Notes under the pieces: generated by a model | The model's input: only the letters and a program-made list of their open reading frames with translations | Database searches by the model: none | What the model was told of the DNA's origin: nothing | In this document: positions 4,327 to 30,776 of the stretch, piece by piece | Layout: each line of letters begins with the position of its first letter | Position numbering within the stretch: the first letter of the stretch is position 1 | Position numbers and translations under genes: made by a program | DNA from: Candidatus Omnitrophota bacterium | GTDB taxonomy: Bacteria; Omnitrophota; Gorgyraeia; Gygaellales; Profunditerraquicolaceae | Direction of reading: 5' to 3' | Assembly: GCA_026416665.1 (NCBI GenBank) | Contig: JAOAET010000044.1 | Location: 2,491 to 66,490, forward strand | DNA length: 64,000 nucleotides

Positions 4327-4390
4327 AACCACCTCTCCTTTCTTTACTGAAAACTAAACATTTTAATTAGCTTTTATTAATTCATTTTGT

Positions 4391-9857: not shown

Positions 9858-10301
9858 CTAATTTTGATTCGGCACCTGCTGATTTGCTTTCATTGGATTA
9901 CCTGGTGAAGAAGTAGCAGTCTTGGTTGCATTAATTTCTTGATTTCCTTGCGTTACATTACCAGTCGTAGTGGTTGGAACAGAAGATTGGGGCTTCTCTG
10001 TCCTTTGTGGTTGCACGTCAGTTGCGTTTTGAGTAGTTATAATCTTCTGTGGCTTAACTGAACGCATCAAGGATCTGCTTTCCCGTAGGGACAAAAATGC
10101 AAGATTCAAACAACTTAAAAAGAACAAAACTGCCAACACAGAAGTAAGTTTTGAAAGAAATGTGCTTGTCTTTGTCCCTAACATTGACTCAAGTCCTGAA
10201 AACGCCTCTACAAAACCTCCACCCCTGCCCCGCTGAACTAAGATAATTGCAATAAGGATAATACAAACCAAGACGTGAAAAGTTACTGCTAAAGCCATCA
10301 T
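9858..10301 (-). CDS. secG: Preprotein translocase subunit SecG with an extended T/Q/N-rich C-terminal tail
   Basis: 147-aa ORF with two TM helices and the SecG signature LVQRGRGGGF. It follows tpiA immediately, with a 4-nt overlap. Confidence 0.75.
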   Translation of the reverse strand: MMALAVTFHVLVCIILIAIILVQRGRGGGFVEAFSGLESMLGTKTSTFLSKLTSVLAVLFFLSCLNLAFLSLRESRSLMRSVKPQKIITTQNATDVQPQRTEKPQSSVPTTTTGNVTQGNQEINATKTATSSPGNPMKANQQVPNQN

Positions 10302-11077
10302 TTTTTCACCTTCACTTTCATTGCTCGAATTACTATATCCGAGAAAGAATCTACTTTTAGGCTTGCTCCTCCTACTAAAGCCCCGTCTACATCTGGCTGT
10401 TGCATAATCTCTTCAATATTATCAGGTTTTACACTACCACCATATTGAATGCGTATATTATTGGCTATTTCCTTATTAAACATCTCTGTCAACAGCTTAC
10501 GAATAAACTGATGTGCTTCTTGGGCCTGCTGACTGGTAGCATTCTTACCTGTTCCAATTGCCCATACTGGTTCATAAGCAATGACGATGTCAGAAACCTC
10601 TTGAGCTGTTAACCCAGTTAAACCATTTTGGATATGGTCTTTTAAAACCTCGAAGGTCTTTTCTTCTTGTCGTTCCTTAAGTGTCTCGCCCACGCACATA
10701 ATAGGAATCAAACCGTTTTGTAACGCTGCTTTTACTTTTTTATTGACGGTCTGGTTTGTTTCTCCAAAATATTGTCTTCGCTCAGAATGACCAATAATTA
10801 CGTATTTGCAACCTACATCTTTAAGCATTAGTGGTGATACTTCCCCAGTAAAGGCACCTTCTTGCTGCCAGAAGACATCTTGTGCACCTAACTGCATTGG
10901 TGAACCGCTAATTACCTCATTTACTTCGGAAAGAGCAGTAAACACAGGACACAATACAATGTCAATAGCCTCTGCATCAAGGTCATAAAACGCCCGTTTT
11001 AACCCATTGGCTAACTCAATTGCCTGACTAATGGTTTTATACATCTTCCAGTTTCCAGCAATAATTGGCTTTCTCAT
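10298..11077 (-). CDS. tpiA: Triosephosphate isomerase
   Basis: 259-aa ORF with an IIAGNWKM N-terminus and the GHSERR and IAYEPVWAIGTG TIM signatures. Confidence 0.9.
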   Translation of the reverse strand: MRKPIIAGNWKMYKTISQAIELANGLKRAFYDLDAEAIDIVLCPVFTALSEVNEVISGSPMQLGAQDVFWQQEGAFTGEVSPLMLKDVGCKYVIIGHSERRQYFGETNQTVNKKVKAALQNGLIPIMCVGETLKERQEEKTFEVLKDHIQNGLTGLTAQEVSDIVIAYEPVWAIGTGKNATSQQAQEAHQFIRKLLTEMFNKEIANNIRIQYGGSVKPDNIEEIMQQPDVDGALVGGASLKVDSFSDIVIRAMKVKVKK

Positions 11078-11151
11078 ATCTGTCTTGTCCTGTTGAAAAA
11101 CCTCTTCAAATTATCCATAATTGCATATGTCTGGCAAAACATTACCTAATT

Positions 11152-12333
11152 TTATTTATCACTTAAAGCAGCAATACCTGGTAAAACTTTTCCTTCCAAA
11201 AATTCTAAACTTGCCCCTCCACCAGTTGAAATATGCGTCATTTTATCTTGTAACTTAAACTTAGCCACTGCAGCTGCTGAATCACCACCACCTATAATGG
11301 TGGTTGCCTTCAAATTCGCCAGACACTTGCAGATTGCCTCAGTCCCTTTGGCAAAAGGCTCCATCTCAAATACTCCCATTGGTCCGTTCCAGACCACTGT
11401 CTTGGCGTTCTTTAACTTAGATTCAAACAAGGCAATAGTCTTAGGTCCTATATCCACGGCAATCTTACCCTCAGGAACCTCTGGGCCAACTATGGCGGTG
11501 TTGGCATTAGCGTCAATGGTATCTACCACTACGTGGTCACAAGGCAAAACTATTTCTTTTTTTAGTTGTCTTGCCTTCTCAAGTATAGAGTTTGCTGTCT
11601 CAATTTTATCTTTTTCTAGTTTGGAGTTTCCTACTCCTATGCCTTGTGCCTTCAGAAAGGTGTAAGCCATACCACCACCAATCAGAATAGTATCGCACTT
11701 CGGCAAAAGATTCTCTATTACCGCAATTTTATCAGAGACCTTTGCTCCACCTAAAATCACAATAAACGGACGTGCAGGATTAGCCACTGCCTCACCTAAG
11801 TACTTAATCTCTTTCTCTAAGAGAAAACCTGCTGCTGAGGGTAAATATTTATTTACTCCTGCAGTGGATGCATGGGCACGATGTGCTGTTCCAAAGGCGT
11901 CGTTTACGAAAACATCACCTAAAGAAGCAAGTTCTTTAGCGAATGCCGGATCATTTGCCTCTTCTTCGGCATGAAAACGTAGATTCTCCAGCAAAACCAC
12001 TTTACTGTTTGCTTTCTGAACAGCCTCTTTGAGACCCGGGCCAACACAATCATTCATTAAATCTACTGGTTCTCCCAATAATTCGGCAAGTTTTACTGCT
12101 ACTGGCTTTAAACTATACTTATCTACGCGCTTGCCATCAGGTCTTCCTAAGTGGCTCATCAAAACAAGTTTCTTTGCCCCTTGTTCTAGAATGTATTTGA
12201 TAGTAGGAAGCGTCTCTCTTATACGAGTATCGTCAGTAACTTGAAGATTTGCATCAAGTGGCACATTAAAGTCCGCACGCATCAAAACAATTTTGTCTTT
12301 AAGTTTAAGGTCACGAACAGTTAGTTTTGCCAT
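11152..12333 (-). CDS. pgk: Phosphoglycerate kinase
   Basis: 393-aa ORF with RADFNVP, LGRPDG and GGGASLE PGK motifs. It heads a pgk-tpiA-secG arrangement. Confidence 0.9.
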   Translation of the reverse strand: MAKLTVRDLKLKDKIVLMRADFNVPLDANLQVTDDTRIRETLPTIKYILEQGAKKLVLMSHLGRPDGKRVDKYSLKPVAVKLAELLGEPVDLMNDCVGPGLKEAVQKANSKVVLLENLRFHAEEEANDPAFAKELASLGDVFVNDAFGTAHRAHASTAGVNKYLPSAAGFLLEKEIKYLGEAVANPARPFIVILGGAKVSDKIAVIENLLPKCDTILIGGGMAYTFLKAQGIGVGNSKLEKDKIETANSILEKARQLKKEIVLPCDHVVVDTIDANANTAIVGPEVPEGKIAVDIGPKTIALFESKLKNAKTVVWNGPMGVFEMEPFAKGTEAICKCLANLKATTIIGGGDSAAAVAKFKLQDKMTHISTGGGASLEFLEGKVLPGIAALSDK

Positions 12334-12601
12334 ATTTGCCCCCCTTTGCCTATAATCTTTTTAAGAGAAAATAATATATACTATTTTATTGAAGTTGTCA
12401 AAGATTTTCCTATCATACGCATAAAACTAAATTCCCACAAACAATCTCGTTATTAAACTTAATTCTATTTTCACCAAGAAAAATAATGGCAAAAATTGTG
12501 GAGATTTATTTAACTTATTCTTATGGGTGATTAACTTAAGAGAGAAATTAGCTTACCTAACTACAAGAGATTTTTTGCTAGTGATTAATAACCATATAAA
12601 A

Positions 12602-15600
12602 TTACTGTCTTATATCCCAGTTAACATTGCCGCCCAAATCTTGGGAACGAATGGCAATGATGGTTTTGCCGTCTGCCTGGTGGGAATAGCCAATTTTTAA
12701 ATAAGAAAGGGTTGTTTGCGGAGCACTCAGATACCACATCATTTCAGGAACAATTGGTGCAAGTTCAATAAGCCGACCTGCTGAACCTGACACATTAAAA
12801 CCTGTAGTTATTGTATGCGGTGCAGACGCAGAAGCAGCGGAAAAAGATAATTTCTTTACCCCAGGACCAGCGTTTAAGTAGGCAGTAACCAGACGGTCAA
12901 CAAATGCCACTCCACCTTCATAGGTGTTAGTAATAGTCAAGATATTAAAACTGCTTCCTCCTGACCTTACTGTCTGGGTTTGAGTACTGGAATTAAGAAT
13001 TACCTTGCCTGTACCAGGATCAAACAAACCACCAAGATTAGTCCAGTTCCCTGAGACAGTAAGAGTATAAGAACCAGCACGAAGTATAGCATTTTCTTCA
13101 ATAATCAAATTCCCTGCGATAAAGGTATTACCACTTAACCAATAATTTGCCTGATACCTATTTGAGATGGTTAAATTTGTATAATTGGTTGAGGCAAGAT
13201 AAATATTAATGGTTGCAGTCTGATTAACTAAAGTTCCAGTTATTACGATTTGAATTACCGGCCCGACTTGCGAGCCAGCAAGCACACGAATTTGTTCTAC
13301 TGCACTGACGGTAAAATCGCCTTTACCCAACTGACCATTAGCGTTATTACCGCAATTAAATACTGGTCGTGCCTGACTTAAGGCAACAGTCTGTGCACCA
13401 CCTGCTGCTATAGCCACAATATCGTGAAGATAAGTTTCACTTCCTTGTTCTCCTGCCAAAACTTTGACTGGGGTATATCTATTTATGGTGGTTCCATCAC
13501 CAAGTTGACCCCAAGGTTCATTGTTAGGACCTTGGTTTTGCCCCCAACTATAAACATAACCACCGTCAGCAATTGCTAAACTGTGTGCACCACCTGCTGC
13601 TATATCAGTAACATTTCTTAAATAAGTACCTCCTTGTACTCCTGCCAAGACTCGAACAGCAGTTAAACGCGTAAAAGTAGTCCCGTCCCCTAACTGACCA
13701 TAGTTATTATATCCCCAGCTAAAAACATAACCGTCTGAAGAAAGTGCTAAACTGTGTGAATCGCCTGCAGAGATTCGTGTTATATTATGTAAGTAAGTAC
13801 CTGCTCCTTGTTCACCAGAAAGCACTCTGACCGCTGTTGCACTATTTATAGTTGATCCATTTCCTAACTGTCCGTCTTCATTAAATCCCCAAGCATAAAC
13901 ATAACCATCAGTTGTAAGCGCAAGCATATGCGCACCACCTACAGCAACTGTTGCTATATCGTGTAGATATGTGCCACCTCCTTGTTCACCAGAAAGAACT
14001 TGCACAGGATAATAACTATCTTGGGTTGTTCCATTACCTAACTCTCCTTCACCGTTGTAACCCCAGGTATAAACGAAACCTGTTGAGGATACAGCTGCAC
14101 TATTAAAACCACCGGCTGCTATCTTTGAGATATTACTAAGCACCCCCTCGTTATTTAATCCATGCACCTGAACTGGGGTTGCACTATTTTCCGTTGAGCC
14201 GTTACCTAACTGACCAAACTCATTATATCCCCAAGCAAATACTGTTCCATCTTCTGCCAAGGCGATACTGTGATAACCACCTGCTGCTATGCGAATAATA
14301 TTATGTAAATAGGTTCCTCCTCCCTGCTCACCCGAAAGTACCTGCACAGGTCTTGAGGCATCATCAGTTGTGTTATCCCCTAATTGACCAAAGAAATTGC
14401 ATCCCCAAGCAAAGACATAACCGTCTTGGGTTAACGCAATAGTGTGATCATAACCTGAAGCAATTGCTCGGATATTAACCAGATAACTCTTCCATACCAA
14501 ATTCCAAGTAGTAGCATTTCCTGCCTGCAAGGTGTGATTAAATTTTACTTCTAGTGTTCCATTTACATTTATCGTATTTGTTCCTGTCTTGGTAGTTGTA
14601 GCTACTGTTGAACCATCACCAAAGGTAAGATTAAAAAAGTTCCAGGCATTAGATGAACCGCCAAAGTTACCTGTACCTTGTACAGTAAATGTGCCACCGG
14701 TTACATTGATAATCCCTACGCCAGAGCTGGTGACACTGCCTCCTTTTACGGTGATGTTGTAATCGCTAGCAAGAGTACCTACATCAACCTGTAAGACATT
14801 ATTAATCACTACTGGCCCAGCAAATGTCTTTGTTCCCGTAGCATTAATAATTACCTTATAAAAATCACGACCATTACCCGTTCCACCAGTATCAACGGTT
14901 GCTGAACTACCGCTAAAAATCACTGTACTTGTTCCGCAATTGAAAGTAGCTTTGTTTAACCAATCACCACTTACTGTTAAGGTATTATTTGTCAAAGTAA
15001 GCGCACCAGCTAAAATAGATACACTTCCTTCAAAATTAACTGTACCACTAAAAGTCAAAGTACCTGTGCCTAACTTATCCAAACTTCCTGCTCCACCGCC
15101 ACCAGTATCAGTAAAAGTATTTGAAATAATCGTGTTTCCTGTTCCATCAACAGTTAAACGATATCCACCATTGTTTATGGTTCCAGAAAGACTAAGCTGT
15201 GCCCCTTTTACTTCAATAGTGCTTGTTCCTGTCATAGTAATAGCACCAGCAAAACTACTTGTGCCCGTGCTACAAATAAGCTTACTGTCTGCAGCTAAAA
15301 TAAGCGGCTCAGTGGTAGAATAACTAACATTACGAAAATCAATGGTTGCATTATTTACCGTGGTATTACCAGCATTTGTGCCAAGGGCGTTATTTACCGT
15401 TACTGCTAATGTGCCTCCATTAATTACATTTGCTCCTGTATAAGTATTATTGCCACTTAATACTAAAGTCCCTAAACCTGCCTTAGTAATACCAAAACCA
15501 GTGCCACTAATCACTACGCTAATAGTTAAGTCATCATTTGCACTGCCGTCTTCAACAGTTATAACTCGCGATGCACCCAAAGCAATACTTCCACTACTAG

Positions 15601-18600
15601 AAGTGGTTATTGTAGAACCCACTGCCCCCAGACCATTGACAAACAAATTAATGCTACCTGCACCTGTAGAAAGAAGTGTCAAGGTGCCTGCTCCCAAAAC
15701 AACATCCGCAGCGTTAGTGCTTCCGCTATAGAGATTTAAAGTAGTAATAGTCAAAGCAACATTCCCTAAGGTAAAAGTAGCGTTCGGTGCAACTGTAATT
15801 ACACTGGTGTTGGCAATAGCATTGGCAAGGTTTATGGTTAAGCCACCTTCGTTAATAGTAGTAACTGCTGTGTAACTTTTAACTGCTCCGTAGTAACTGG
15901 CAGCACTTGTTGGAAATTCTACTGTACCTGAACCACTAATAGTTAAACCACCTGAACCAGCAATAGCTGGAGATATATAAAATGAACCTATAGCAAAAAT
16001 AATTCCTTCGGCATAACCAAATTGTAAAATACGAGAAGTGCTTGAAGCAGTGGCTCCAATATTACCTGTAGAAACTCGACCAACTGCACCTGAAGTAACC
16101 GTTAATGTACAGTTTGCACTGTAACTTAAGTCTGCACCGTTAATTAAAATAGAGTTAATCGTTACACTACTTGCGGCATTAGTAGCAGAAGTAATTCTTA
16201 CATTTGTGCCTGCGGTCAAGGTGTTTTGAGTATATTCTGTAGCAAGGTCAAGTAGACGAATTCCATTACTGTTAGGCCCATTATCTGTTATATTTATGTT
16301 ATAAGTGACAAATCCTGTACCTAAACCACTTACAGAATTATCTCCAAAGGCATAAGGAACAATCGGCTTGTTCGTCGCAGAGGTATTTGCACCGACCAAA
16401 TATAAACCTGAGGGATCAACAAAAATAATATTGGTGTTTCCTGCTGCAGGGTTGCTACCTATATTATTACCTCTAAACAACACAGTAGCTCCTGTATCTC
16501 TTGTAATCGCACCAAAAGTAAGAACAGTTGAACCACCTGTTCCTGAAAAGACCGTTACCTTAGAAGCTCCTTGTGCGACTTCCAGCATTCCAATAGTTTC
16601 CGCGGCATTGGTAGCAGATACATTGGTTCCCTTGAACACAAATTCTCCACCTCTTAGAATAATAGAACTACTGTTGCCAATACGGTTGGTGTTGTTGGCA
16701 GCGCTATTGTCAACAATTACACTACCACTAGAATTTATAACAAAAGACACACAATTAAGGGCAGTGCCATTACTTCCGGATAAAGTAAGTGTTCCTCTGT
16801 TAATAGTGGTAGTGCCCAAATAGCTATTAACACCAGTTAAAGTAAGCGAACCGGCGTTTACCGTAAGGTCTGCCACAAAAGAATTGTTACCTCCAAGAAG
16901 AAGCGAGCCATCACCATCTTTTATTAAAGAACCTTCACCAGTAATAATTCCGTTATAAGTAAGGGTAGTTCCTGTATCGGTGTATATGGTTCCTGTTCCT
17001 GATAAAAAAATTCCCCGATTAGCGTTTAAGGTAAAAGAAGAACTTGTTCTTAGTGTTCCAGCAAAAAGATTAAGGTAACTGTCACCTGTACCTGCTCCTA
17101 GTGCTTGGTCTTCAGATATTCTAATAATTGCCTCAGTTATTCTAATACCACCAGTAAAGTTATTTGTAGAGTTGCTTAAGGTGACTAATCCTGCACCTGC
17201 TACTGTTAATCCACCACTTCCTGTTATCTGACTTGAAATATTAAGGTTTCCTAAGGCGTAGATAACCGCAGAACTTGTCCCAAATGCCAGAACTGTAGAG
17301 GCATTTATTCCTGCATTTCCTTCTAGGGCTAAGACATTTCCGCTGGTAATTGTTAAGGTATAGGAAGAATTAGCTATAGCTGCTGAGGAAGTAAGAATAA
17401 GAGAATTGATAGTGATATTGGCAACCGGTGCAACTGCAGAGGTAAGCTTTACATTAGCATTAGGAACAGATAGACTTGTAGCATACTCGTTGCTATAGCC
17501 GCCGCTGTTTAACAGTCGCAAACCAAAAGGATTGTCATCAAAATTATAAGTTACCATATCCGTAGCAGCAGAGGACAAAGAATCGCTACCAAAGGCACCT
17601 TTAATGATACTTACAGTTGGTGTCCCTGCAGCGCCACCTGCGCCACTTAAAACAGGTGCATTAGTAAACATAATGGTAGCCACATTCGCCCCTGAAGCAC
17701 TACCTAAGTTTTTACCACGAAAAACCACTATTGCGCCTTCGGTGCGTGCTAAAGAGGCAAAGGTAATTACTGTTGCTCCTTTTGTAGAATCCCTGACGTT
17801 CACATAGTTAAGCCCAGACTGAATCTGAAGCGGTCCAACGGTTTCAAAAACAGCAGAGGTATTTGAACCAATAAGTGTGAAACTACCTCCATACATCTTA
17901 ATAGTGGCAGTATCGGCAATACGGTTTAAGTTACTGGCTGAACTATTATCAAGAATTAATGTCGCCTCATCATGGATGGTAAAAGAAGTAGAATCAAGTG
18001 CTGAGCCATTTGCTGCACTAAAAACTAAAGTGCCTTGTTTGACAGTTGTTTCACCAGAATAAGTATTTACACCCTGCAATATTAGAGTGCCTTGACCGTG
18101 TTTTTCTAGAGAATTTGCTCCCGCAATAACACCGGCGTAAGTTAAAGTAGTACCTGGCTCTACATAAATAGCACCTGTTTTTGATAGCAAAATTCCTCGG
18201 TTTGCATTTAAAGTAAAATCTGATAGAGTTCTCAGTGAACCACCATTTAAAATAAGGTGACTTGGCGTTGGTGTTACCGGAGCTGTCCCTAAACCGCTAT
18301 CTGCCTTAATCTTTAAGGCCCCTTCATTTATTATGGTTGTTCCGGTGTAAGTGTTGACAGCAGTAAAAAACCAAGTGCCAGAACCATTTTTTACTACACT
18401 GGTTACTCCTGTTCCATTATCAGTAATAACCGGGCTAAACACACCAGAACCTGTTCCCGTAAATATTAAGGTTCTAGATACGTTTGTACCACTTAAATTA
18501 ATGGAAGTTCCTGTGAAAGTAAGAGTTCCTTCTCCTGAAACATCTAGGGTAGTTCCAGAAGTTCCGACAGTAAAAAGTCTATCCGTAGAGGTGGACGGAC

Positions 18601-21600
18601 CAGTATATTTAAATGTTCCTGCATTTAATACAAGGTTAGTTGCAGCGTTAGAAGAGGCACCAATACTACTTGCAACTCCACCATTACGTAATATTGTAGT
18701 AACCATTGTACCCTCATTAACAGTTGTAACACCAGTGTAGGTATTAGCTGCATCCAGTGTCCATATTCCTATCCCATTTTTTGTAATGGAACCCGTAGTA
18801 ATAGCAATTACTCCACTTCTAAAGATTCCTTCTCCTGAACCATCTAGAATCAAGTTGTAAGTAGAACCAGTGACACCTCCAGTAAAAATAATCGGACCAG
18901 TTCCATCTGCGACAATAGTAACCCCTGAACCAGTCAAAGTGATACTACGATCAGTAGTTCCACCTGTTCCGATGTATCTAAGCACAGTTGAAGCAGCCAT
19001 ACTAATTGCAGAGGTGCCAGTTCCTAAAGAACTGGCTGAACCTGTGTTAGCCAAACTGTTTACCACTACCGTGCCTGCGTTAATAGTTACAGCACCAGTA
19101 AAAGTATTTAATCCCGTCAAAGTTAAGGTCCCATTTCCTGCTTTTGTAAGTCCACCTGCTCCACTAATTACTGCAGAAATTGTCAAACCGTCTGTAGAGT
19201 TAGTCAAAGTAAATGTCCTGGTTGCAGCCATAATGAGATTGCCACTAATCAAAGCATTGCTACTGCCACCAGTAGATGTAACATTTCCGTTTAATTGTAA
19301 ACTTCCTTGCCCTGTGGCCACTACTCCACCACCATTTGGACCGCTATTGATAGCCAGAGAAGTAACTGTCAAAGTAGCGCCATTACCACTGCAACGAACA
19401 ATGCCTCCATCATTTACGGTAAGCGCACCAATAGTATCTGAGAAACTGTTCCAGTCAAATACTGCACCGTTATTTACCGTCACATTTCCAGAAGACAATG
19501 TATCTGTTATGCCGTAAAGCAGTTTACCTGCATTTATTGCGGTAAGTCCAGTATAAGTATTTGCTTTGGAAAGTAACAAGGTTCCTGTGCCTTCTTTGGT
19601 AACACCATAACCTGTTCCACTTATTACTACCGCAATGGTTAAATCGTTTTCTGCTAATCCATCGGCAACAGTTACTGTTCTTGAAGCACTAAGGGCTATA
19701 CTACCAGTGCTTGCTGTGTAAATTGTTGAACCTACTGCCCCAGTCCCATTTAAGTTTACAGTTATATTCCCACCAAGGGTTAAAGCATTAATACCCAAAA
19801 CTACCTGAGCACCTGCAGTATTGCCACTATACAGATTTAGGGAAGCAATTGTCAAGGATACATCGCCTTTAGTAAAAGTAGCAGGAGCTGCAACGGTGAT
19901 AACGCTAGAGGTAGCAATACCACTGGCAAGGTTAACAGTTAATCCGCCTTCATTTATCGTAGTCGTTCCAGTGTAGGTCTTGGCAGCAGCATTAGAAGAA
20001 GGAAAAGTAACTGTGCCTCCTCCACTGATAGTAATTCCAGCTGTGCCAGAGATAACTGGAGCAAAATTAAATGACCCAATTGCCCAGATTACGCCTTCAA
20101 CATTACCAAACGCTAGAATACGGGAGGTAGCAGTAGAGCTTGCAATATCACCATTAGAAACTCTGGCAACCGCACCTGAGGAAACAGTTAAAGTACGAGT
20201 ATTGGTATTAAAAGTCAGTGTATTTCCGTCTATGAGCAGCGAGTTGATTGTAGCGTTCGTAGTAAAATTGGTAGCAACAGTAATCCGTACATTAGTGTTC
20301 GTAGTAAAAGCATTCTGGGTGTATTCAGTAGTTAGGTTCAGCGGTCTGATTCCATTGGTATTACCATTAGTGTCCACATTGTGGGTGACAAAACTTATTC
20401 CCGTGCCTGTGGCAGAGGTATCACCAAAAGCATAAGGGATGATGTTAATACTAGTAGTTCCGGCAGCGCCTCCTGCGCCCGTAAGGTTTAAACCTGCGGC
20501 ATTAGTGAAACGGATATTTGTGTTGCCTGCTTGAGGGTTTGCTCCAAGATTGGTTCCGCGAAAAAGCACAGTGGCTCCTGCGCTTCGGGAAGCGCCCGCA
20601 AAAGTGAGAATGGTTTGTCCACCTGTGCCAGAGAAAACCGTTACTTTGGACGCTCCAGAAGGAAGAGTTAACATACCCACTATCTCAGTGGCATTAGTAG
20701 AAGGCGTGTTTGTTCCGCGAAAGATAAGTTCTCCACCACTAAGAGTAAAGGCGTTAGAATCACTTAAACGGTTTGTGTTGTTAGTGCCACTGGTTGAGTT
20801 ATCTAAGTTCAGGATAGCACCTTGATTAACAATAAAAGTTGCACTGGTCATTGTGCCATTGGCACCGCTTAAAGTAAATATTCCCCCGTTTAAGGTAACG
20901 GTAGAAGAATTAGTGTTTACCCCCTGCAAAACAATTTCTCCGCCACCACGCTTCTCTAAAGGATTTGCACCTGCAATTACACCTGCATAAGTAAGCACAG
21001 TTGAACTGGTAACATCGATAATTCCACCACCAGAGGAAAGTGCAATACCACGGTTGGCATTAAGGGTAAAACTTGCAGTAGTTAAAAGTGTTCCTCCACC
21101 AAAAGTAAGATGGCCTGGAGTAGCTGAAGCAGGAGGTTGTCCTAAAGCTGAATCAGCCCAGATACGTAATGTCCCTGAATTAATAGTGGTTGCTCCCTGA
21201 TAGGTGTTTGTTGCACCTAAAACTAAAGTCCCCTGACCTTGCTTAATAAGTCCTCTGCCTGCACTGCCACTTATCACGCCACTTATGGTCAATGTCTCGT
21301 TACTATTAGTTACTGTAACTGTCCTTGTTTCTGATAAAGTAATATTTAAACTTATGGTATTTGTTCCACCACTTATATTAGTGGTAATTCCTCCTGCACC
21401 AAGAGTAATTGGATTTCCTGCCAGAGTATAACCGCTTCCAGTAATAGTAATAGAATTAAAACTTGTGTTTGCAGTCAAATCATTATAGGTATTTAATCTA
21501 GAAACCCCTGAAGGAAAAACAAGGTCATCTCCTGCGCCAGGAGTTGCACCACCTAATCCTGTCCAGTTTCCCGCAACTGACCAAAATTCACTGATTGCAC

Positions 21601-23935
21601 CTGTCCAAGTAGCAGTAGGATCCCAGTTATAACAATTACCCCGATTAGTAGATTCAGTCATCTTTACGATAAGTGAATTAAGATTATAGGAGTCCTCAAC
21701 CCAAGTATAAGTAATCAGCCGAACCCCTTTGGGGTCAATATACCAGTATTTTCCTTTCTCTTGCGAAAGTAACTTTATGTGTTTACCATAGGCACCTTCT
21801 AATTCCAAGATGTTCATAATAGTGGTAACCGAACCAGGCTCAAAAAGAAGTTCTTTAGAAGGGCTGGTACAAGTTAAGTTATAAAAACTATTATTTCCAA
21901 AAATAAAAGATGGTCTTGTAGAATCAAAAAATATAACTGTTGACTTCCCTGCCTCAAAAATTCCACCAGTATTTATCCAGCTACCGGCTATGGAAAGTAG
22001 CTGGTTTGTCGCTTGCAAACAGCCGCTACTAAGCAAAATATCTCCATTTATCGCAAGCGAGCGACCAAGAGTAATTATTCCACGATAACCATCAATTACT
22101 AAACCTGCTATTTGGTCTTTGAAATTAGGGTCAACAAAAGAATCTTTGTGAGAGTTTAAAGTAGAAAGGCCGTTAAAGAAAACTACATCAAATGCACTGG
22201 GAACAGTACCCGTATCCCAGTTTGCAGGATCTGACCAAAAATAAGTTTCTCCTTCTCCGATCCAGGAGATTCTAATATCAACATTAGTGTTATTACCAAC
22301 AGAAGTTGAATGCCTTACAATAAGAGGTGGTCCACGTGCATTAAAACAATCTCCAATCTGTGCATAAGCAATATCTGTATCTGCCAAAGGTAAGATTTTC
22401 CATTGTTTACCCGGCTCAGTAGAGACTAAGGTTACAAGATTAGCATAACAACCTTGAATGGTCAAACTTCCCATTACAGTAACTGTCTTGTCTGCCTCTA
22501 CCGTAATCTTTTTTCCTGGAGCGATCACTTGCAAGTTATAAAAAACATTATCTCCACTGATGATACTGGGAAGTTCAGAAATAAATTCCACTGATGACTG
22601 TTGAGCATTAAAATTACCAAAATTAACCCAGTTACGCGCAATATGATAAATGGAATTAGCAGCGTTTAGAGTAACACCCTGACCAATAATTAAAGAACCA
22701 CCTGCAGTTAAATGCGAACCATAATACTGGGTAAAATATGCAGGTTGTGCAGATTGTTTTAAAATGATATCGCCAGCACTATTAACATTGGCAAGTAAAC
22801 CTTTGCCCGAGCTTTGGATAAGAATGTTACCAAACCCACAAGTAGAAATGGTAGTACCTATTGCCTGCAAAAAAGACCCAATTCCATCAAAATCAGCATC
22901 GGCTAAAAATGATAAATTCCCGTTTACTGTGGTAACATCAGCATAAACTTCCACATTCTTGTTTGCTTTAAGTTCAGTATTACCAAATGTTTTCAATTCT
23001 CTATCAATTTTTATAGTCTGACCCGAAAATACTTCTATATTTCCTCTTCGAGCATCTAAGATTCCTGAGATCTCTACATTACGGTTGGCTTTAATTTTTA
23101 TTTTACCACCTTCTTCTACTAAAGTACTGGCTTTTACGATGCCTTTTTGATTAACTGCCTTTTCAAAAATCTGCTCAGCAACTTGGGCGGTCATATACAC
23201 TTGGTGGGCTTCAATTGTTGCTGTATTTAAAACTGCTTCGTTTAGTGGTTTACCATCAAAACCAAATACCTGATTTATAGTTTCTGCGTTAACCTCAAGT
23301 TGGATAAGACCTTTTGTGTCAAAACTAATAGTAACTTTGTTACCTGAAGCAAGTTGCACCGAACCCGCCTGTGCAAAAATAAAACCGTGGTTTTGAACAG
23401 CACTGCCTACTAAAGCAACATTACTTGCTGTAATTTTGCCCTGATTAAGAATTGCCGAAAAGACATTGCTATTTTCAAGAATGTAATTTGCGTTAAGAAA
23501 ATTATTAGTAGCAATATCTAACGTAGAAGCAACTAAGGTTTCTACATGAACCTGCGAAGTAGGGCTAAAACATATACCTTGGGGGTTTATTAAAAAAAGC
23601 GTTCCATTTGCGCTTAAAATTCCTGCAATTTCAGTAGGACTTTGACCTATTACCCGACTTAAAACTCTTGCGTTTTCTGATGGTTGAATAAAATGTACTG
23701 CTTCATTTGAAGCAATGGAGAAAGAATTGAAATTAATTACACAACCATCATCAGCAAAAATTCTCAAAGTAAAAATATTATTGGTAGTTGCAGGGTCTGG
23801 CCGTTCAAAAGTGGCACTGCCATACTCCACTGACTCACCTTCTGGCAGACAATTACCCGAGTGTGCTGTTAGCACTACTAACAGAATAGTCAAAATATTA
23901 AGTAGAACTAACTTTCGTTTTCTTTTAGGTTTCAT
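12602..23935 (-). CDS. Giant two-partner-secretion exoprotein (TpsA), 3777 aa. It has a signal peptide, a TPS (hemagglutination-activity) secretion domain, beta-helical PATR-rich modules, a 7-bladed RCC1 beta-propeller and a ~215-aa C-terminal domain of unknown function.
   Basis: Single 11,334-nt ORF. Residues ~40-140 match the TPS domain consensus (...[19 protein letters not shown]...[32 protein letters not shown]...VASTLDI). The cognate TpsB gene lies immediately upstream. Confidence 0.85.
   Translation of the reverse strand: [3777 protein letters not shown]
13301..14455 (-). repeat. Seven RCC1-type repeats (aa ~3161-3545) forming a predicted 7-bladed beta-propeller near the TpsA C-terminus
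   Basis: Seven ~55-aa blades, each with AAGG.HSLAL..DG.V..WG.N..GQLG (e.g. [46 protein letters not shown]...WGQLG). Confidence 0.75.
15386..21568 (-). repeat. Three tandem, diverged protein-level modules within tpsA (aa ~790-2850; the middle copy is partial). Each is anchored by ...[10 protein letters not shown]... and holds several PATR units (G.GTL.L.G.NTYTG.T.IN.GTL).
   Basis: TLNANRGI recurs at aa ~957, ~1908 and ~2302 (DNA ~21067, ~18214, ~17032) with collinear flanking similarity. The DNA copies are only ~65-75% identical: ACCCTTAATGCCAACCGTGGT vs ACTTTAAATGCAAACCGAGGA vs ACCTTAAACGCTAATCGGGGA. Confidence 0.6.
23036..23848 (-). other. TPS secretion domain of TpsA (aa ~30-300), FhaB/ShlA/HMW1 Haemagg_act-type
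   Basis: Conserved NPNG-like motif (NPQG) preceded by SANGTLFLI and followed by VASTLDI; hydrophobic signal peptide aa 1-27. Confidence 0.8.
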
Positions 23936-24225: not shown

Positions 24226-25974
24226 TTATAATTCAAAGTGTAAACTAAAATGGAAGGTAGAAGACCCTTGGCTAGGGCTGGGACGATCACCAACGTGTTC
24301 TGCCCAATCAAGCCGTAAGAAAAAATTGCGGTTAAATTGGAAACGCAAACCCATTCCTGCTGCCGCTAAAAACTTTTGGGACTTTTCTACTTCGTCAGTA
24401 TGCTTTAGTTTTCCCGCACCTATATCACAAAAAATCAGTGGTTGTAACTGGTTACGTAAAGGCATACGTGCACCTTTTAATCGAATGTCATCAGGAATAA
24501 AAGGGAAAAAGAACAACCATTCTAAGTTAAGATATGCTCCTATGTCTGCTAAGTAATCACCTTCGGGATATCCTCTTACTGAATAAACACCCCCTAATTG
24601 AAATTGTTCTGAAGAAGGTAAAGTTCGGCTGGCCCATTGTGCTTTTGAACGCAACCATAAATATGTCTGTGCAGAAGTCTTTTGAACCCTCTGTAACGAC
24701 TGCTCATACTTGAGAAAACTACCTGCCGAAGAGGGCCTACTTGCGCTGGCGTGACCGCGTTCTGAAGCGCCCAAAATATCTTCTAGACTTACTGTCAATC
24801 GTGGTGAAAAACTAGTTTGCCCCCCTGGCCCAAAACGGTCAATCTTTGATAAATCTAGTGAAAAAAACAAAAGGCGCAATTGGTCATTAATAGTAGTTTC
24901 TTTTTGTTCTTTTTTCTTTACTGAGACAATGTCCATACCTACATCAAAATACCCTTCGGTTTCGGCAGTAAGAATGATTTCCTTTGTAATATGCGGTGTG
25001 CCTATTCGTGTGGAAGAAGTAATATCCTGATAACGATACTCCTTGCCAACTTTACTGTCAAACACCGTTAAATCTAAACCCGCTCTTGTTCCATAGGAAT
25101 CAGTAGGAAAAACATAACTTACAAAATAACCTTTGGCATCTTTAGACGACATTACATTGAAAGCGCAAGAATCAAATTTTCCAGTTAGGTTTGTGCTTCG
25201 CGCAAAAAAAGAACGACGATACTTACCACTTAAACGCGTTCCATGATTATCAAAACTTGTTCCTATATGATAAGGAAATTGCTCTTTTACTTTTAAAGTA
25301 ATATCGGTTGTCTGAGGTTGTTGCCCTGAACTTAAAACAGCAGTAACTTCTAAATCAGGATTTTGATTTAACCTTAGTAGATCTTGCTGCAGGGTGAAAA
25401 CATTAAGTAACTGGTTTTCTTTTAGATGGATATATTTTCTAATGAGAGCAGAAGAAAACCATCTGTCTGCCTCAATGGTTATTTTACCTAATTTGCCTTC
25501 AATGACTCTTAATTCTATTCTACCCTCAATAACATCCTGTTCTGGAATATAAACGTCTGTGGTTAAATACCCTTTTTTTCTATACAGGGCCTTTATCTGC
25601 TCAACTATCTCTTCTAATTCACTAAAAGTTACTTCTTTTCCTAAGTATTTTTCATAGTTAGGATAAAAATCTTCCTTTGAAAAAATAGTAGAGCCAGTGA
25701 TGATTACTTCTTTAAGAAGAAAAACTACCCCCTCCTTTTTCAGGACAGGTCTTTCTTCAACCTTAATTGACGGGCTCATCGGTTTTTCTCTCTCAATACG
25801 TTTCTTTTCTTCTTCAATCTCTTTTTTAAAACGGCTTGCCTCTGACCCTGCTTTTGTTGAGACAGGTAAATTTTGCGCAATTACTGGACAAGAAAAAAAA
25901 CTGAAAATAAGAAAGCCGACAATTAATATATTTTTGGTGTAACTATTTCTAAACCAAATAAGTGTTTGAGACAT
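24226..25974 (-). CDS. TpsB outer-membrane transporter of the two-partner secretion system (ShlB/FhaC/HecB family; POTRA domains plus a 16-strand beta-barrel)
   Basis: 582-aa ORF with a signal peptide (FLIFSFFSCPVIAQ), a POTRA-like region (GRIELRVIEGKLGKI) and a beta-barrel ending in an aromatic residue (...FHFSLHFEL). It sits directly upstream of and co-oriented with tpsA. Confidence 0.8.
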   Translation of the reverse strand: MSQTLIWFRNSYTKNILIVGFLIFSFFSCPVIAQNLPVSTKAGSEASRFKKEIEEEKKRIEREKPMSPSIKVEERPVLKKEGVVFLLKEVIITGSTIFSKEDFYPNYEKYLGKEVTFSELEEIVEQIKALYRKKGYLTTDVYIPEQDVIEGRIELRVIEGKLGKITIEADRWFSSALIRKYIHLKENQLLNVFTLQQDLLRLNQNPDLEVTAVLSSGQQPQTTDITLKVKEQFPYHIGTSFDNHGTRLSGKYRRSFFARSTNLTGKFDSCAFNVMSSKDAKGYFVSYVFPTDSYGTRAGLDLTVFDSKVGKEYRYQDITSSTRIGTPHITKEIILTAETEGYFDVGMDIVSVKKKEQKETTINDQLRLLFFSLDLSKIDRFGPGGQTSFSPRLTVSLEDILGASERGHASASRPSSAGSFLKYEQSLQRVQKTSAQTYLWLRSKAQWASRTLPSSEQFQLGGVYSVRGYPEGDYLADIGAYLNLEWLFFFPFIPDDIRLKGARMPLRNQLQPLIFCDIGAGKLKHTDEVEKSQKFLAAAGMGLRFQFNRNFFLRLDWAEHVGDRPSPSQGSSTFHFSLHFEL

Positions 25975-26067
25975 TATCTTAATAACGCACGTAAAAAGTT
26001 CATCTTTCTTGAGTGGATTATTATCTTAAAATTTTCTACCTGAGAATTGTTCAAATAATTTGGTTCT

Positions 26068-26073
26068 ATTATA
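26068..26073 (-). promoter_or_regulatory. Candidate -10 hexamer (TATAAT on the minus strand) ~95 nt upstream of the tpsB start, with a weak extended -10 context (cGg)
   Basis: ATTATA on the plus strand at 26068-26073 is TATAAT on the minus strand. No good -35 lies at 17-nt spacing, so the call is weak. Confidence 0.25.
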
Positions 26074-26100
26074 CCGCTTGACAACAATTCTTCATAGGAA

Positions 26101-26937
26101 TTATTTATGGTGGTTAACAATGTTAATCTTTTCTTGGTTAAGCATACCTAAAAGACAAATAAACTGCTCGAGAGAAACCTGTTCTGCACGAATAGAAGAG
26201 GAAAGTTTTTCTTGTTTAAAAAATTCATCTAAGGTTTCTTCAGGGACAACTTTTTTTAAGGAATTTTTTAACATCTTTCTGCGTTGTTGAAATGCCTGAC
26301 GAATAATAAAGAAAAGATTATCCTCATTTATAGCAGTCTGCCATTTTTTTTGCACTGGCTTAAGATGCACAAAACATGAATCCACTTTAGGTACAGGAAA
26401 AAAACAACTTCTTTTTATGGTAAATAAAATCTTTGGATTACTGTAATATTGCACAAAACAACTAAATGCCCCGTAAAGCCGACTACCAGGAATAGCTTGC
26501 ATGCGTTGGGCAAACTCTTTTTGTACAGTTAAAAATATGTCTTTAATACAATCTCTGGCTAAAAATAGTTTTTCTATAATTGGGCTGGTAATATAGTAAG
26601 GGATATTGCCTACCACAATCAGAGGTCTTTTCAACTTTTGGGAGAAATTTTTAATATCAAAACCCAAAATATCTGCTTGAATGACTTTAACGTTTGTGTT
26701 ATCCTTGAACTCCTCTTCAAGCAACAAAGCCAATTGCTTATCTATTTCTACAGCAAAAAGCTCAACTTTTTTTTTGGCAAGCAACCGTGTTAATACCCCT
26801 TGGCCTGCTCCTATCTCCAAAATGGCCTGGCCCTCTTCAACTGGTATAAAGGAAAGCATTTTCTGCAGGATATTTTTATCCACTAGAAAATGCTGACCTA
26901 AGCTCTTTTTAGGTTTTGGCAACAAGTAATTGCGCAT
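26101..26937 (-). CDS. rsmA: 16S rRNA (adenine1518/1519-N6)-dimethyltransferase
   Basis: 278-aa ORF with LGQHFL and ILEIGAGQGVLT SAM-binding motifs. It overlaps pdxA by 40 nt, conserving the surA-pdxA-ksgA synteny. Confidence 0.9.
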   Translation of the reverse strand: MRNYLLPKPKKSLGQHFLVDKNILQKMLSFIPVEEGQAILEIGAGQGVLTRLLAKKKVELFAVEIDKQLALLLEEEFKDNTNVKVIQADILGFDIKNFSQKLKRPLIVVGNIPYYITSPIIEKLFLARDCIKDIFLTVQKEFAQRMQAIPGSRLYGAFSCFVQYYSNPKILFTIKRSCFFPVPKVDSCFVHLKPVQKKWQTAINEDNLFFIIRQAFQQRRKMLKNSLKKVVPEETLDEFFKQEKLSSSIRAEQVSLEQFICLLGMLNQEKINIVNHHK

Positions 26938-28769: not shown

Positions 28770-28773
28770 ATAA

Positions 28774-30663: not shown

Positions 30664-30696
30664 TATCTTAACAAGAATTGATTTATCTTATTGCCA

Positions 30697-30745
30697 AGTA
30701 AAAACGTCTGCCCATCAAACTTAACTTAAAGCAGACGTTTTATAT
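30697..30745 (-). terminator. Intrinsic (bidirectional) terminator between secDF and mfd: an 11-bp perfect stem AAAACGTCTGC/GCAGACGTTTT with a 19-nt loop and A/T tracts
   Basis: Perfect inverted repeat at 30701-30711 and 30731-30741, read directly from the sequence. Confidence 0.55.
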
Positions 30746-30776
30746 TTAAACTTCTTATTTTTTAAACACCAAACAA

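What the first reader, a model, noticed from the sequence alone, without database searches (positions are those of the whole stretch)
12605..14455. RCC1 seven-bladed propeller plus an unannotatable C-terminal domain at the distal end of TpsA
In TpsA/CdiA-type proteins the extreme C-terminus is usually the functional tip (a toxin or adhesin). Here aa 3161-3545 are seven regular RCC1 blades (AAGG.HSLAL..DG.V..WG.N..GQLG). aa ~3560-3777 (…YLKIGYSHQADGKTIIAIRSQDLGGNVNWDIRQ) match nothing I recognise. There is no VENN/pretoxin motif and no immunity-like small ORF downstream, since pgk follows. A receptor-binding role is plausible but undemonstrated.
Basis: partly seen in the sequence, partly recalled or inferred. 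Interest (0 to 1): 0.55.

Follow-up and report, generated by a model that had tools for sequence, protein, structure and literature searches.

The report
RCC1 propeller ending a secreted fibre
The last 630 residues of a giant secreted fibre protein from an uncultured Omnitrophota bacterium are a genuine seven-bladed RCC1 propeller followed by a reused beta-helix building block, not a toxin, so this is most likely the binding end of an adhesin and only moderately unusual.

Summary
Window 12602-23935 (-) encodes a 3,777-aa TpsA, with a TpsB gene directly upstream.

- **RCC1 domain.** Residues 3155-3555 are seven RCC1 repeats of 56-64 aa. Pfam gives E 8.7e-95. The AlphaFold model has pLDDT above 90 and 28 strands. 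Its best PDB match is UVR8 (TM 0.91).
- **C-terminal domain.** The last ~195 aa match no Pfam, NCBIfam or PDB entry, but they are not an orphan domain.
  - They are the third full copy of a module found at aa 380-556 and 608-775 of the same protein (hhalign 99.7%, E 1.5e-25).
  - An exhaustive profile search finds 6,562 cluster representatives, mostly giant surface proteins with up to 52 matched stretches; 34 of the top 149 start with a TPS domain.
  - The model (pLDDT 92) is an all-beta solenoid. Its only solved-structure resemblances are weak ones to right-handed beta-helices.
- **No toxin signature.** There is no VENN motif, no immunity-like ORF, no C-terminal cysteine loop and no DGR template.
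- **Relatives.** The RCC1-plus-module end is conserved at 57-66% identity in the few known relatives (three full-length proteins and two fragments), and both relatives whose upstream gene could be seen have tpsB there.

Most likely this is a two-partner-secreted beta-helical adhesin fibre. The propeller would be the ligand-binding head and the last module a structural end-piece. The organism is a Candidatus Omnitrophota MAG. I rate it a new variant of a known kind, of modest interest.

The parts
12602..23935 (-). TpsA-type exoprotein gene, 3,777 aa. The identical protein is NCBI MCX7927480.1, from a Candidatus Omnitrophota MAG, annotated 'autotransporter-associated beta strand repeat-containing protein'.
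   Evidence: ORF list and translation. Pfam gives 11 PATR stretches plus RCC1. NCBIfam gives TIGR01901 and TIGR02601. Exact-sequence cluster look-up.
23024..23854 (-). TPS (two-partner secretion) domain, aa 28-304. It follows an apparent signal-peptide-like N-terminus (MKPKRKRKLVLLNILTILLVVLTAHSG; read by eye, no signal-peptide predictor was run).
   Evidence: TIGR01901 matches aa 67-141 at E 6e-20. A local HMM built from five related N-termini matches aa 28-304 and 34 of the 149 top module-family representatives.
22268..22798 (-). Internal copy A of the beta-solenoid module, aa 380-556.
   Evidence: phmmer of the C-terminus against the protein. Alignment A1. hmmsearch scores it as a full module. 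Copy A against copy B is 35% identical over 206 aa, E 1.5e-25.
21611..22114 (-). Internal copy B of the beta-solenoid module, aa 608-775.
   Evidence: It is the first sequence of profile A6, which matches the C-terminal profile A5 at 99.7% probability.
14696..15037 (-). Weak partial copy (N-terminal half only) of the module, just before the propeller, aa ~2967-3080.
   Evidence: phmmer domain 17, i-Evalue 0.0028. It is probably the fourth hmmsearch stretch in P0016, whose coordinates were not printed. This is weak evidence.
13271..14491 (-). Seven-bladed RCC1-like beta-propeller, aa 3149-3555.
   Evidence: Pfam PF25390 at E 8.7e-95, plus PF00415 and PF13540 with six stretches each. Seven motif repeats with 56-64 aa periods. 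AF2 pLDDT above 90 with 28 strands. Foldseek to UVR8, TM 0.91, E 5.5e-35.
13187..13270 (-). Linker between the propeller and the last module, aa 3556-3583. It is poorly conserved and modelled with low confidence over its first ~20 residues (aa ~3546-3575).
   Evidence: pLDDT is below 50-66 in both models. The sequence varies among relatives.
12605..13186 (-). C-terminal beta-solenoid module, aa 3584-3777. It is the third full copy and carries one extra ~21-aa rung. The protein ends 4 residues after the module's last conserved Trp.
   Evidence: hmmsearch places a full module at 3584-3777. AF2 with an 86-sequence alignment gives pLDDT 92 and pTM 0.87, all short strands. hhalign to the internal modules gives 99.7%, E 1.5e-25. 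No Pfam, NCBIfam or PDB name.
24226..25974 (-). TpsB outer-membrane transporter gene, 582 aa, directly upstream of tpsA.
   Evidence: Pfam gives ShlB (E 1.5e-19), POTRA_2 (E 2.9e-19) and Omp85. It is 51% identical to the TpsB upstream of relative P0022.
12334..12601 (.). Intergenic gap between the tpsA stop and the pgk start. It holds no immunity-like ORF. A sigma-70-like site for pgk lies at 12401-12373 (-).
   Evidence: ORF list at a 20-aa minimum. Promoter/terminator scan. PGK Pfam hit at E 7e-164.

Best explanation
This is the far end of a two-partner-secreted, roughly 3,800-residue beta-helical fibre made by an uncultured Candidatus Omnitrophota bacterium.

Proposed pathway:
1. The protein is exported by Sec.
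2. Its TPS domain is recognised by the adjacent TpsB pore.
3. The chain is threaded out and folds outside the cell into a long beta-helix made of PATR-type repeats and module units.
4. The last parts to emerge are a canonical seven-bladed RCC1-like propeller (aa 3149-3555) and a ~195-aa beta-solenoid module (aa 3584-3777).

The propeller is the most probable ligand-binding head, acting as a protein- or glycan-binding platform as in other extracellular bacterial RCC1 proteins. The final module is a structural end-piece. It is the same building block used twice just after the TPS domain and in thousands of other giant surface proteins. It probably terminates and stabilises the fibre rather than acting as a toxin, enzyme or anchor.

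Shown here: the domain identities, the fold predictions, the homology of the module copies, the conserved tpsB-tpsA pairing and the absence of toxin/immunity features. Inferred, not shown: secretion, the orientation of this end relative to the cell, the adhesin function and the ligand.
For: TPS system:
- TIGR01901 matches aa 67-141.
- ShlB/POTRA_2 TpsB lies directly upstream, and also in the two relatives whose upstream gene could be seen.

Beta-helical body:
- Eleven PATR stretches.
- Three ~650-aa super-repeats.

Propeller:
- Pfam E 8.7e-95 and seven repeats.
- AF2 pLDDT above 90 and Foldseek to UVR8 at TM 0.91.
- Its nearest sequence relatives are bacterial multidomain proteins carrying PKD, Big, dockerin, SLH, FN3, RHS or T9SS-tail domains, which are extracellular display contexts.

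Last module as a reused structural unit:
- Internal copies within the same protein.
- hhalign 99.7%, E 1.5e-25.
- 6,562 representative proteins, with up to 52 matched stretches per protein. In most of the top hits the module lies internally, and 34 of 149 are TPS proteins.
- The nearly invariant positions are F, V, F, F, G, L, W and W, which are core-type residues.
- The confident all-beta solenoid model resembles only right-handed beta-helices, and only weakly.

Conservation:
- The RCC1-plus-module end is conserved at 57-66% identity in P0022, P0023, P0252, P0001 and L059.

Context from the literature:
- Omnitrophota are ultra-small cells with host-dependent traits, and their large surface proteins have been proposed as adhesins (PMC10066038; bioRxiv 10.1101/2023.11.21.568195).
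Against: - No experiment or ligand exists, and propeller function cannot be read from the fold.
- The C-terminal subfamily of the module has an extra rung whose sequence (DRLVTAYLNAG-GVKKLSFSAAS) is invariant in seven sequences that are 54-71% identical. That rung could be a functional surface rather than mere scaffold.
- TpsA topology varies among known systems, so the propeller could lie near the cell surface rather than at the tip.
- The second model gives no reliable relative orientation of the propeller and the module. pTM is 0.65 and the linker and final residues have low confidence.
- Fold libraries other than the PDB and BFVD were unavailable.
Confidence: 0.6

Rival explanations
1. The C-terminal ~215 aa are a CdiA-CT-like toxin or effector delivered to neighbouring cells.
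For: The domain sits at the extreme C-terminus of a TpsA, where contact-dependent inhibition toxins sit (established knowledge). It has no database annotation.
Against: - There is no VENN or related pretoxin motif and no PT-VENN Pfam hit.
- No FHA-1 or FHA-2 repeat families were hit.
- The window has no downstream ORF longer than 21 aa on the same strand. In relatives, the small downstream ORF is a PqqD-family protein.
- The domain is conserved, not polymorphic, among relatives at 52-72% identity.
- It is homologous to internal repeats of the same protein and of thousands of others.
- It is predicted to be a beta-solenoid.
Confidence: 0.03
2. The last module is a retention or anchoring element that keeps the fibre attached to TpsB or the outer membrane, as the C-terminus of HMW1 does. 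The propeller would then sit next to the cell surface.
For: About 17 of the 149 top family members end with the module within 25 residues of the C-terminus. Six of them, including this protein, end exactly at the module's end. The terminal 'NW-I-P' ending is conserved in TpsA proteins of two different architectures, P0022/P0023 and P0043/P0064.
Against: - The same module occurs internally in most carriers and twice near the N-terminus here.
- There is no cysteine after aa 3528, so no HMW1-like disulfide loop is possible.
- No hydrophobic or lipid-anchor signal is visible at the end.
Confidence: 0.12
3. The last module is itself a carbohydrate-binding or polysaccharide-degrading beta-helix (pectate/alginate-lyase-like) that attacks a target cell envelope.
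For: The weak Foldseek matches are to PL6 alginate lyases, PL3 pectate lyases and tapirins. One of the 86 module copies hits PF20585, a pectate-lyase-like adhesive domain, at E 4e-4. Cell-wall degradation has been proposed for Omnitrophota giant proteins (bioRxiv 10.1101/2023.11.21.568195). The invariant charged rung in the C-terminal subfamily could be an active or binding surface.
Against: - All PDB matches have E>=0.1 and TM<=0.35.
- No Pfam lyase or hydrolase family is matched consistently across the 86 copies.
- The family-wide conserved positions are hydrophobic or glycine, with no conserved catalytic acid/base pattern.
Confidence: 0.1
4. The RCC1 domain is a eukaryote-directed effector (a Ran-GEF mimic like the Legionella RCC1-repeat effectors) rather than an adhesin head.
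For: Bacterial RCC1-repeat effectors that act inside eukaryotic hosts are known (cited in bioRxiv 10.1101/2023.11.21.568195). The best structural matches are eukaryotic RCC1-like domains.
Against: - The domain is embedded near the end of a 3,777-aa TPS-secreted beta-helix with no translocation apparatus.
- Its closest sequence relatives are bacterial extracellular multidomain proteins at 35-47% identity.
- Identity to RCC1 itself is only 24%.
Confidence: 0.04

Closest known systems
TpsA adhesins of two-partner secretion (FhaB/FHA of Bordetella, HMW1 of Haemophilus)
   Same: It has an N-terminal TPS domain and an adjacent Omp85-family TpsB with POTRA domains. It is a very long beta-helical exoprotein whose functional determinants lie away from the TPS domain.
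   Different: The body is built from PATR/autotransporter-type repeats and an unnamed module, not FHA-1/FHA-2 repeats. It ends in an RCC1 propeller plus a module. No C-terminal prodomain or cysteine-loop anchor was recognised. The organism belongs to phylum Omnitrophota.
CdiA contact-dependent inhibition toxins
   Same: Both are giant TpsA proteins encoded next to a TpsB.
   Different: Here there is no VENN motif, no polymorphic C-terminal toxin and no immunity gene. The C-terminus is a conserved repeat unit.
RCC1-like domains (RCC1, UVR8, HERC2 RLDs, RPGR) and bacterial extracellular RCC1 proteins (COG5184 'alpha-tubulin suppressor-like RCC1 family', BLIP-II)
   Same: It is a seven-bladed propeller of 51-68-aa repeats. 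TM is 0.91 to UVR8 and 0.72-0.82 to HERC2, RPGR and RCC1. It is 35-47% identical to bacterial surface-protein propellers.
   Different: It is embedded in a TpsA between a beta-helical stalk and a beta-solenoid module. I found no description of that combination; only two unrelated papers in the library mention both RCC1 and two-partner secretion. No Ran or UV-B function is implied.
Fap2 of Fusobacterium nucleatum (type Va autotransporter; PMC12397386) and the Bap1/RbmC beta-propeller adhesins of Vibrio cholerae (PMC10102183)
   Same: These are functional analogues only: Fap2 is a large autotransporter adhesin that binds host receptors, and Bap1/RbmC use a beta-propeller as a glycan- or matrix-binding adhesin domain.
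   Different: The secretion systems differ (type Va and type II against type Vb). The propeller families differ. No sequence relationship was tested or claimed.
Giant surface proteins of Omnitrophota (PMC10066038; bioRxiv 10.1101/2023.11.21.568195)
   Same: Same phylum. Both are very large, repeat-rich, mostly unannotated extracellular proteins proposed to mediate attachment to or attack on other cells.
   Different: Those proteins exceed 20 kb, carry transmembrane helices and use other domain sets (SecA-like, dockerin, discoidin). Neither paper mentions two-partner secretion or haemagglutinin-type proteins, and RCC1 is discussed only for Oscillospiraceae proteins.

Membership tests
Two-partner secretion exoprotein (TpsA, type Vb) | N-terminal TPS domain after an N-terminal Sec signal sequence | tested here: met
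   TIGR01901 matches aa 67-141 at E 6e-20, above its cutoff. A local TPS HMM matches aa 28-304. The hydrophobic N-terminus is visible in the translation. Pfam PF05860 itself did not report a hit.
Two-partner secretion exoprotein (TpsA, type Vb) | Cognate TpsB (Omp85 family with POTRA domains) encoded alongside | tested here: met
   Window 24226-25974 (-) carries ShlB, POTRA_2 and Omp85 domains. The same arrangement holds in the two relatives' loci where the upstream gene was visible.
Two-partner secretion exoprotein (TpsA, type Vb) | Actual TpsB-dependent secretion and extracellular folding | not testable with these tools
   This needs heterologous expression or proteomics.
CdiA / polymorphic toxin | Pretoxin (VENN or equivalent) motif demarcating a variable C-terminal toxin | tested here: not met
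   No VENN, VDNN, ELYN or similar string is present. Pfam PT-VENN gave no hit at E<=0.1. The C-terminus is conserved at 52-72% identity among relatives.
CdiA / polymorphic toxin | Immunity gene immediately downstream | tested here: not met
   The 268-bp gap has no same-strand ORF longer than 21 aa, and pgk follows. In relatives the downstream ORF is a PqqD-family protein that begins a radical-SAM cluster.
RCC1-like domain (seven-bladed propeller) | Seven tandem RCC1 repeats of ~50-65 aa with the family's sequence signature | tested here: met
   PF25390 at E 8.7e-95, PF00415 at 2.2e-66 and PF13540 at 1e-60. Seven G[QE]LG and seven AAGG-H-S-AL motifs occur with periods of 56-64 aa.
RCC1-like domain (seven-bladed propeller) | Closed seven-bladed, four-stranded-per-blade propeller fold | tested here: met
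   The AF2 model has 28 strands and pLDDT above 90 over aa 3149-3554. Foldseek gives UVR8 TM 0.91 with rmsd 2.8 Å, HERC2 RLD TM 0.82 and RCC1 TM 0.72. This is a prediction, not a solved structure.
Unnamed beta-solenoid module family (this protein's aa 380-556, 608-775 and 3584-3777) | Significant profile-level homology between the C-terminal domain and the internal copies | tested here: met
   hhalign of A5 against A6 gives 99.7% probability, E 1.5e-25, over 166 columns, with one 21-aa insertion. hmmsearch scores three full copies in P0016.
Unnamed beta-solenoid module family (this protein's aa 380-556, 608-775 and 3584-3777) | Membership of any curated family (Pfam-A, NCBIfam) or a solved structure | tested here: not met
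   Pfam finds nothing for the domain and no consistent family among the 86 copies. NCBIfam finds nothing. The PDB gives nothing by sequence or by fold below E 0.1.
HMW1-type C-terminal anchor | Disulfide-bonded cysteine pair in the last ~20 residues | tested here: not met
   The last cysteine is at aa 3528, inside blade 7.
Diversity-generating retroelement target (variable C-terminal ligand-binding domain) | A template-repeat copy of the gene's 3' end nearby | tested here: not met
   blastn (word size 7) of 12301-14600 against the whole window finds only blade-to-blade similarity and no second copy of the 3' end. Only this 64-kb window was searched. No reverse-transcriptase gene was looked for.

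The most novel reading that the evidence does not exclude
The RCC1 propeller plus terminal module could be the host- or prey-recognition tip of an Omnitrophota-specific type Vb fibre. I estimate the fibre at about 60-70 nm, assuming ~22 residues and 0.48 nm per rung. It would give these ultra-small, host-dependent bacteria their first attachment to a partner cell. On this reading the invariant charged rung of the terminal module forms part of the binding surface. The PqqD/radical-SAM cluster that follows the gene in three related loci would then modify the fibre or supply a co-factor for it.
Probability: 0.2. Interest if true: 0.6.

Novelty: new variant of a known kind. Interest (0 to 1): 0.3.

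Why it matters
If the propeller is the binding head, this protein and its few relatives are concrete, clonable candidates for how Omnitrophota nanobacteria attach to other cells. The literature on the phylum leaves that question open (PMC10066038).

The work also shows that a domain which looks unannotatable is a member of a very large module family that Pfam, NCBIfam and the PDB do not cover. The family has 6,562 representatives at 50% clustering and occurs in TPS, T9SS and other giant surface proteins, and apparently in some phage proteins. Defining it as a family would improve annotation of many giant genes.

The finding does not reveal a new mechanism. It is a new domain combination on a familiar secretion scaffold.

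Tried and rejected
- **Toxin/immunity reading.** Rejected: no motif, no immunity ORF, and the C-terminus is conserved and repeated.
- **DGR variable region at the 3' end.** Rejected: no template-like copy exists in the window.
- **HMW1-like cysteine anchor.** Rejected.
- **Chlamydial Pmp, FHA-1/2 and T5SS-PEPC repeats as the identity of the module.** None was reported by Pfam or NCBIfam at E<=0.1.
- **Word-index search with the C-terminus alone.** It gave only 3 hits. Using the A1 profile gave 14. The exhaustive search was needed to see the family.
- **Exact look-up of the window protein in the contig index.** Not on record. The cluster look-up gave the NCBI accession instead.
- **Alignment A3 (anchors, RCC1 homologues and module copies).** MAFFT stretched the RCC1 rows over the C-terminal module, so I discarded it. 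A4, without module-only rows, was used for model 2. As a result the last ~65 residues are poorly modelled there, and model 1 is the reference for the module.
- **Genome scan with alignment A1.** I repeated it with the single sequence.
- **The PqqD/radical-SAM cluster that follows the gene in three related loci.** Searched for in the window and absent.
- **Self-BLAST of the whole protein.** It returned only the identity hit, so I replaced it with chunked queries.
Full report
**What is there.** The finding's coordinates (12605-14455, minus strand) are residues 3161-3777 of a single 3,777-aa ORF at 12602-23935 (-). NCBIfam places a filamentous-haemagglutinin-type TPS domain at aa 67-141 (TIGR01901, E 6e-20) and finds 11 autotransporter-type beta-strand repeats. 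Pfam finds the same PATR repeats plus RCC1. The gene directly upstream (24226-25974, -) encodes a 582-aa protein with ShlB, POTRA_2 and Omp85 domains, which is a TpsB. The genes downstream are pgk, tpiA and secG. The identical protein is NCBI MCX7927480.1 from a Candidatus Omnitrophota metagenome-assembled genome, where it is annotated only as an 'autotransporter-associated beta strand repeat-containing protein'.

**The propeller is real and has seven blades.**
- Pfam reports the RCC1-like domain PF25390 at E 8.7e-95. PF00415 and PF13540 each match six stretches.
- The G[QE]LG motif occurs exactly seven times (aa 3183-3534). The AAGG-H-S-AL motif also occurs seven times, with periods of 56-64 aa.
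- The blades are 65-80% identical to each other at the DNA level.
- An AlphaFold2 model of aa 3100-3777 used an alignment of three relatives' tails, five fragments and 25 bacterial RCC1 propellers. It has pLDDT above 90 across aa 3149-3554 and 28 strands, which is 7 blades of 4.
- Foldseek against the PDB returns UVR8 (E 5.5e-35, target TM 0.91, rmsd 2.8 Å), then HERC2 and HERC1 RLDs, RPGR and RCC1 itself.
- The nearest sequence relatives (35-47% identity) are bacterial multidomain proteins. Their other domains are PKD, Big, cadherin-like, FN3, dockerin, SLH, RHS and T9SS sorting tails, which are all extracellular display contexts.

**The C-terminal domain has no name but is not an orphan.**
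- The last 232 aa have no Pfam hit at E<=1 and no NCBIfam hit. They have no PDB sequence relative, whether searched with a shallow or a deep profile.
- phmmer of this segment against the protein itself finds two earlier copies, at aa 380-556 and 608-775. These align with shared F, V, G, F, L, K, T, G, L, W, S and N columns (A1).
- The two internal copies are 35% identical to each other over 206 aa (E 1.5e-25).
- I compared a profile of the C-terminal subfamily (A5) with a profile of internal-type copies from this and other proteins (A6). hhalign gave 99.7% probability, E 1.5e-25, over 166 columns. The only large difference is a 21-residue insertion in the C-terminal type, about the length of one extra solenoid rung.

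**The module belongs to a very large family.** An exhaustive HMMER search of 1.84 billion cluster representatives with the A1 profile finds 6,562 proteins at E<=1e-3, 2,964 at E<=1e-10 and 506 at E<=1e-30. Nearly all of the top 150 are 1,000-7,700 aa long, and individual proteins have up to 52 matched stretches.

Local re-analysis of the top 149 gave the following picture.
- The N-terminal half of the profile is a generic beta-helix rung that can repeat dozens of times. The C-terminal ~90 aa form a distinctive unit (consensus TFYNLT...K.L.F.AGSTQTI.G.LTL.G..GN.I.L.S...G..W.I.P.G.....Y..V.DS.N...S...GNN.NW).
- In most of these proteins the complete module lies internally.
- About 17 proteins have it within 25 residues of the C-terminus. 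Six, including this one, end exactly at the module's end.
- Thirty-four of the 149 start with a TPS domain and six carry RCC1.
- Others that contain only the rung half are T9SS cargo with Por_Secre_tail domains.
- Genome hits span Omnitrophota, Bacteroidota, Acidobacteriota, Fibrobacterota, Gammaproteobacteria, Ignavibacteria and several Patescibacteria.
- Scanning all 86 module copies of alignment A2 against Pfam gave only nine scattered single hits and no consistent family.

**Predicted fold of the module.**
- With the 86-sequence alignment, AlphaFold2 gives pLDDT 92 and pTM 0.87 for aa 3546-3777. The ordered part runs from about aa 3575 to the end and consists entirely of short strands, as expected for a beta-solenoid.
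- Foldseek against the PDB finds nothing below E 0.1. All weak matches (TM<=0.35) are right-handed parallel beta-helices: PL6 alginate lyases, PL3 pectate lyases, tapirins and the FHA TPS domain.
- Against predicted viral structures, three uncharacterised proteins of uncultured Caudovirales match at query TM 0.52-0.65 with probability 0.99-1.00 but marginal E-values (0.04-0.12). This suggests the same module occurs in some phage proteins.
- The nearly invariant positions across the family are F, V, F, F, G, L, W and W. That is a core-packing pattern, not a catalytic one.

**No toxin, anchor or variability signature.**
- The protein has no VENN-like string. The last cysteine is at aa 3528, inside blade 7.
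- Pfam finds neither PT-VENN nor FHA-1/2 repeats.
- The 268-bp gap before pgk has no same-strand ORF above 21 aa. It contains a promoter-like site for pgk.
- No second copy of the gene's 3' end exists in the window, so a diversity-generating retroelement is not indicated.

**Relatives.**
- The same architecture (TPS, two modules, PATR body, seven RCC1 blades, terminal module) is present in P0022 (3,482 aa, an Omnitrophota MAG) and P0023 (5,712 aa). For a third contig, L059, only the C-terminal 1,264 aa (beta-helical body, propeller, module) were seen.
- The fragments P0001 and P0252 carry the RCC1-to-module junction.
- Identity to the window protein over the last 680 aa is 57-66%.
- A scan of 241 million metagenome records for the junction found only two contigs with it, so this particular ending is rare.
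- tpsB lies directly upstream in both relatives' loci where it could be seen, and it is 51% identical to the window's TpsB. Flanking genes otherwise differ.

**How it most likely works.** The shown facts fit a type Vb (two-partner) exoprotein. It would undergo Sec export, TPS-domain recognition by TpsB and outward threading, and would fold into a long beta-helix. Assuming about 22 residues and 0.48 nm per rung, the ~3,100-aa body would be roughly 60-70 nm long; this is my estimate, not a measurement. The propeller and last module emerge last.

Propellers are binding platforms, and this propeller's relatives sit in surface-display proteins. The last module is a reused unit conserved mainly at core positions. 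For these reasons I assign the binding role to the propeller and a fibre-terminating, stabilising role to the module. Omnitrophota are reported to be ultra-small cells with host-dependent traits, whose large surface proteins are suspected adhesins (PMC10066038; bioRxiv 10.1101/2023.11.21.568195). A TPS fibre with a propeller head fits that lifestyle.

Functional analogues are the autotransporter adhesin Fap2, which binds host receptors (PMC12397386), and the beta-propeller adhesins Bap1 and RbmC (PMC10102183). Secretion, orientation and ligand are all inferred.

**Caveats.**
- The C-terminal subfamily of the module has an extra rung whose sequence, DRLVTAYLNAG-GVKKLSFSAAS, is invariant in seven sequences that are otherwise 54-71% identical. 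That degree of conservation of charged residues could mark a functional surface, so a binding role for the module cannot be excluded.
- TpsA topology differs among known systems, so 'distal end' is an assumption.
- Model 2 gives no trustworthy relative orientation of the propeller and the module (pTM 0.65).
- Only the PDB and BFVD fold libraries were available.

**Comparison and novelty.** Membership of the TpsA class and of the RCC1-like domain family is met on every feature I could test. Membership of CdiA-type toxins, HMW1-type anchors and DGR targets fails on tested defining features. I found no description of an RCC1 propeller inside a TpsA. Only two unrelated papers in the library mention both terms, and the Omnitrophota giant-protein papers do not mention two-partner secretion. 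The protein sequence itself is already public with a generic name.

I therefore rate this a new variant of a known kind. It is a familiar secretion scaffold with an unreported head, plus a very common but uncurated building block. Interest is modest (0.3).

Noticed in passing
L058 15499-20353; P0023 locus; L059 3933-5967: In three related loci the RCC1-type tpsA is followed within ~50-60 bp by a PqqD-like 93-aa ORF and a B12-binding radical-SAM enzyme. In the two loci that extend further, a TPR/FlmR_OhkR_N protein, a second PqqD and a second radical-SAM follow in the same order. The genes upstream of tpsB differ between the two loci where they are visible. The cluster is absent from this 64-kb window, where pgk follows instead. 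It could be simple synteny or a functional link such as a RiPP-like maturation system.
   Followed up: partly
window 1-4353 (-): A second very large ORF runs off the left end of the window. At least 1,451 aa are visible, with a signal-peptide-like start (MLRKVLSVLLVVSLIFGQIVNSVGFAQ). It has no significant Pfam domain apart from a sub-threshold CofD match near its truncated end.
   Followed up: partly
window 12602-23935 (-), aa ~880-2890: The TpsA body contains three ~650-aa super-repeats, at aa ~880-1530, ~1850-2400 and ~2230-2890. They are 40-57% identical to each other, showing recent internal duplication of blocks of PATR repeats.
   Followed up: partly
window 14492-15037 (-), aa ~2967-3148: Just before the propeller there is a partial module. 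Read by eye, its sequence (…WNFFNLTFGDGS…TINVNGTLEV…AGNATTWNLVW) follows the module consensus up to the conserved Trp, and then the first RCC1 blade begins. It looks as if the propeller replaced the last ~45 aa of a module. The phmmer match is weak (i-Evalue 0.0028), and this stretch was modelled with low confidence.
   Followed up: no
BFVD entries A0A6J5KUB8_2, A0A6J7X413, A0A6J5QXQ6: Uncharacterised 800-1,250-aa proteins of uncultured Caudovirales match the module model at query TM 0.52-0.65 and probability 0.99-1.00 with 17-19% identity. The module may therefore also be used in phage proteins, possibly tail or receptor-binding proteins.
   Followed up: no
P0015 and P0017 (module-family representatives, 6,191 and 4,480 aa): These giant proteins consist of dozens of the generic rung repeats and end in a PQQ/BamB-like beta-propeller. 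This is an analogous 'beta-helix fibre plus terminal propeller' design that uses a different propeller family.
   Followed up: no
window 24226-33333 and 9858-12333 (-): The tpsB-tpsA pair is embedded among housekeeping genes. On the tpsB side are ksgA, pdxA, a SurA-like chaperone, an Mfd-like helicase, secDF and yajC. After tpsA come pgk, tpiA and secG. In relatives the pair sits in entirely different neighbourhoods, so the two genes appear to move as a unit.
   Followed up: partly
window 23024-23854 (-), aa 28-304: Pfam-A did not report its own TPS model (PF05860) for this protein at E<=0.1, although NCBIfam TIGR01901 matches clearly. Omnitrophota-type TPS domains may be under-detected by Pfam-based annotation.
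   Followed up: no
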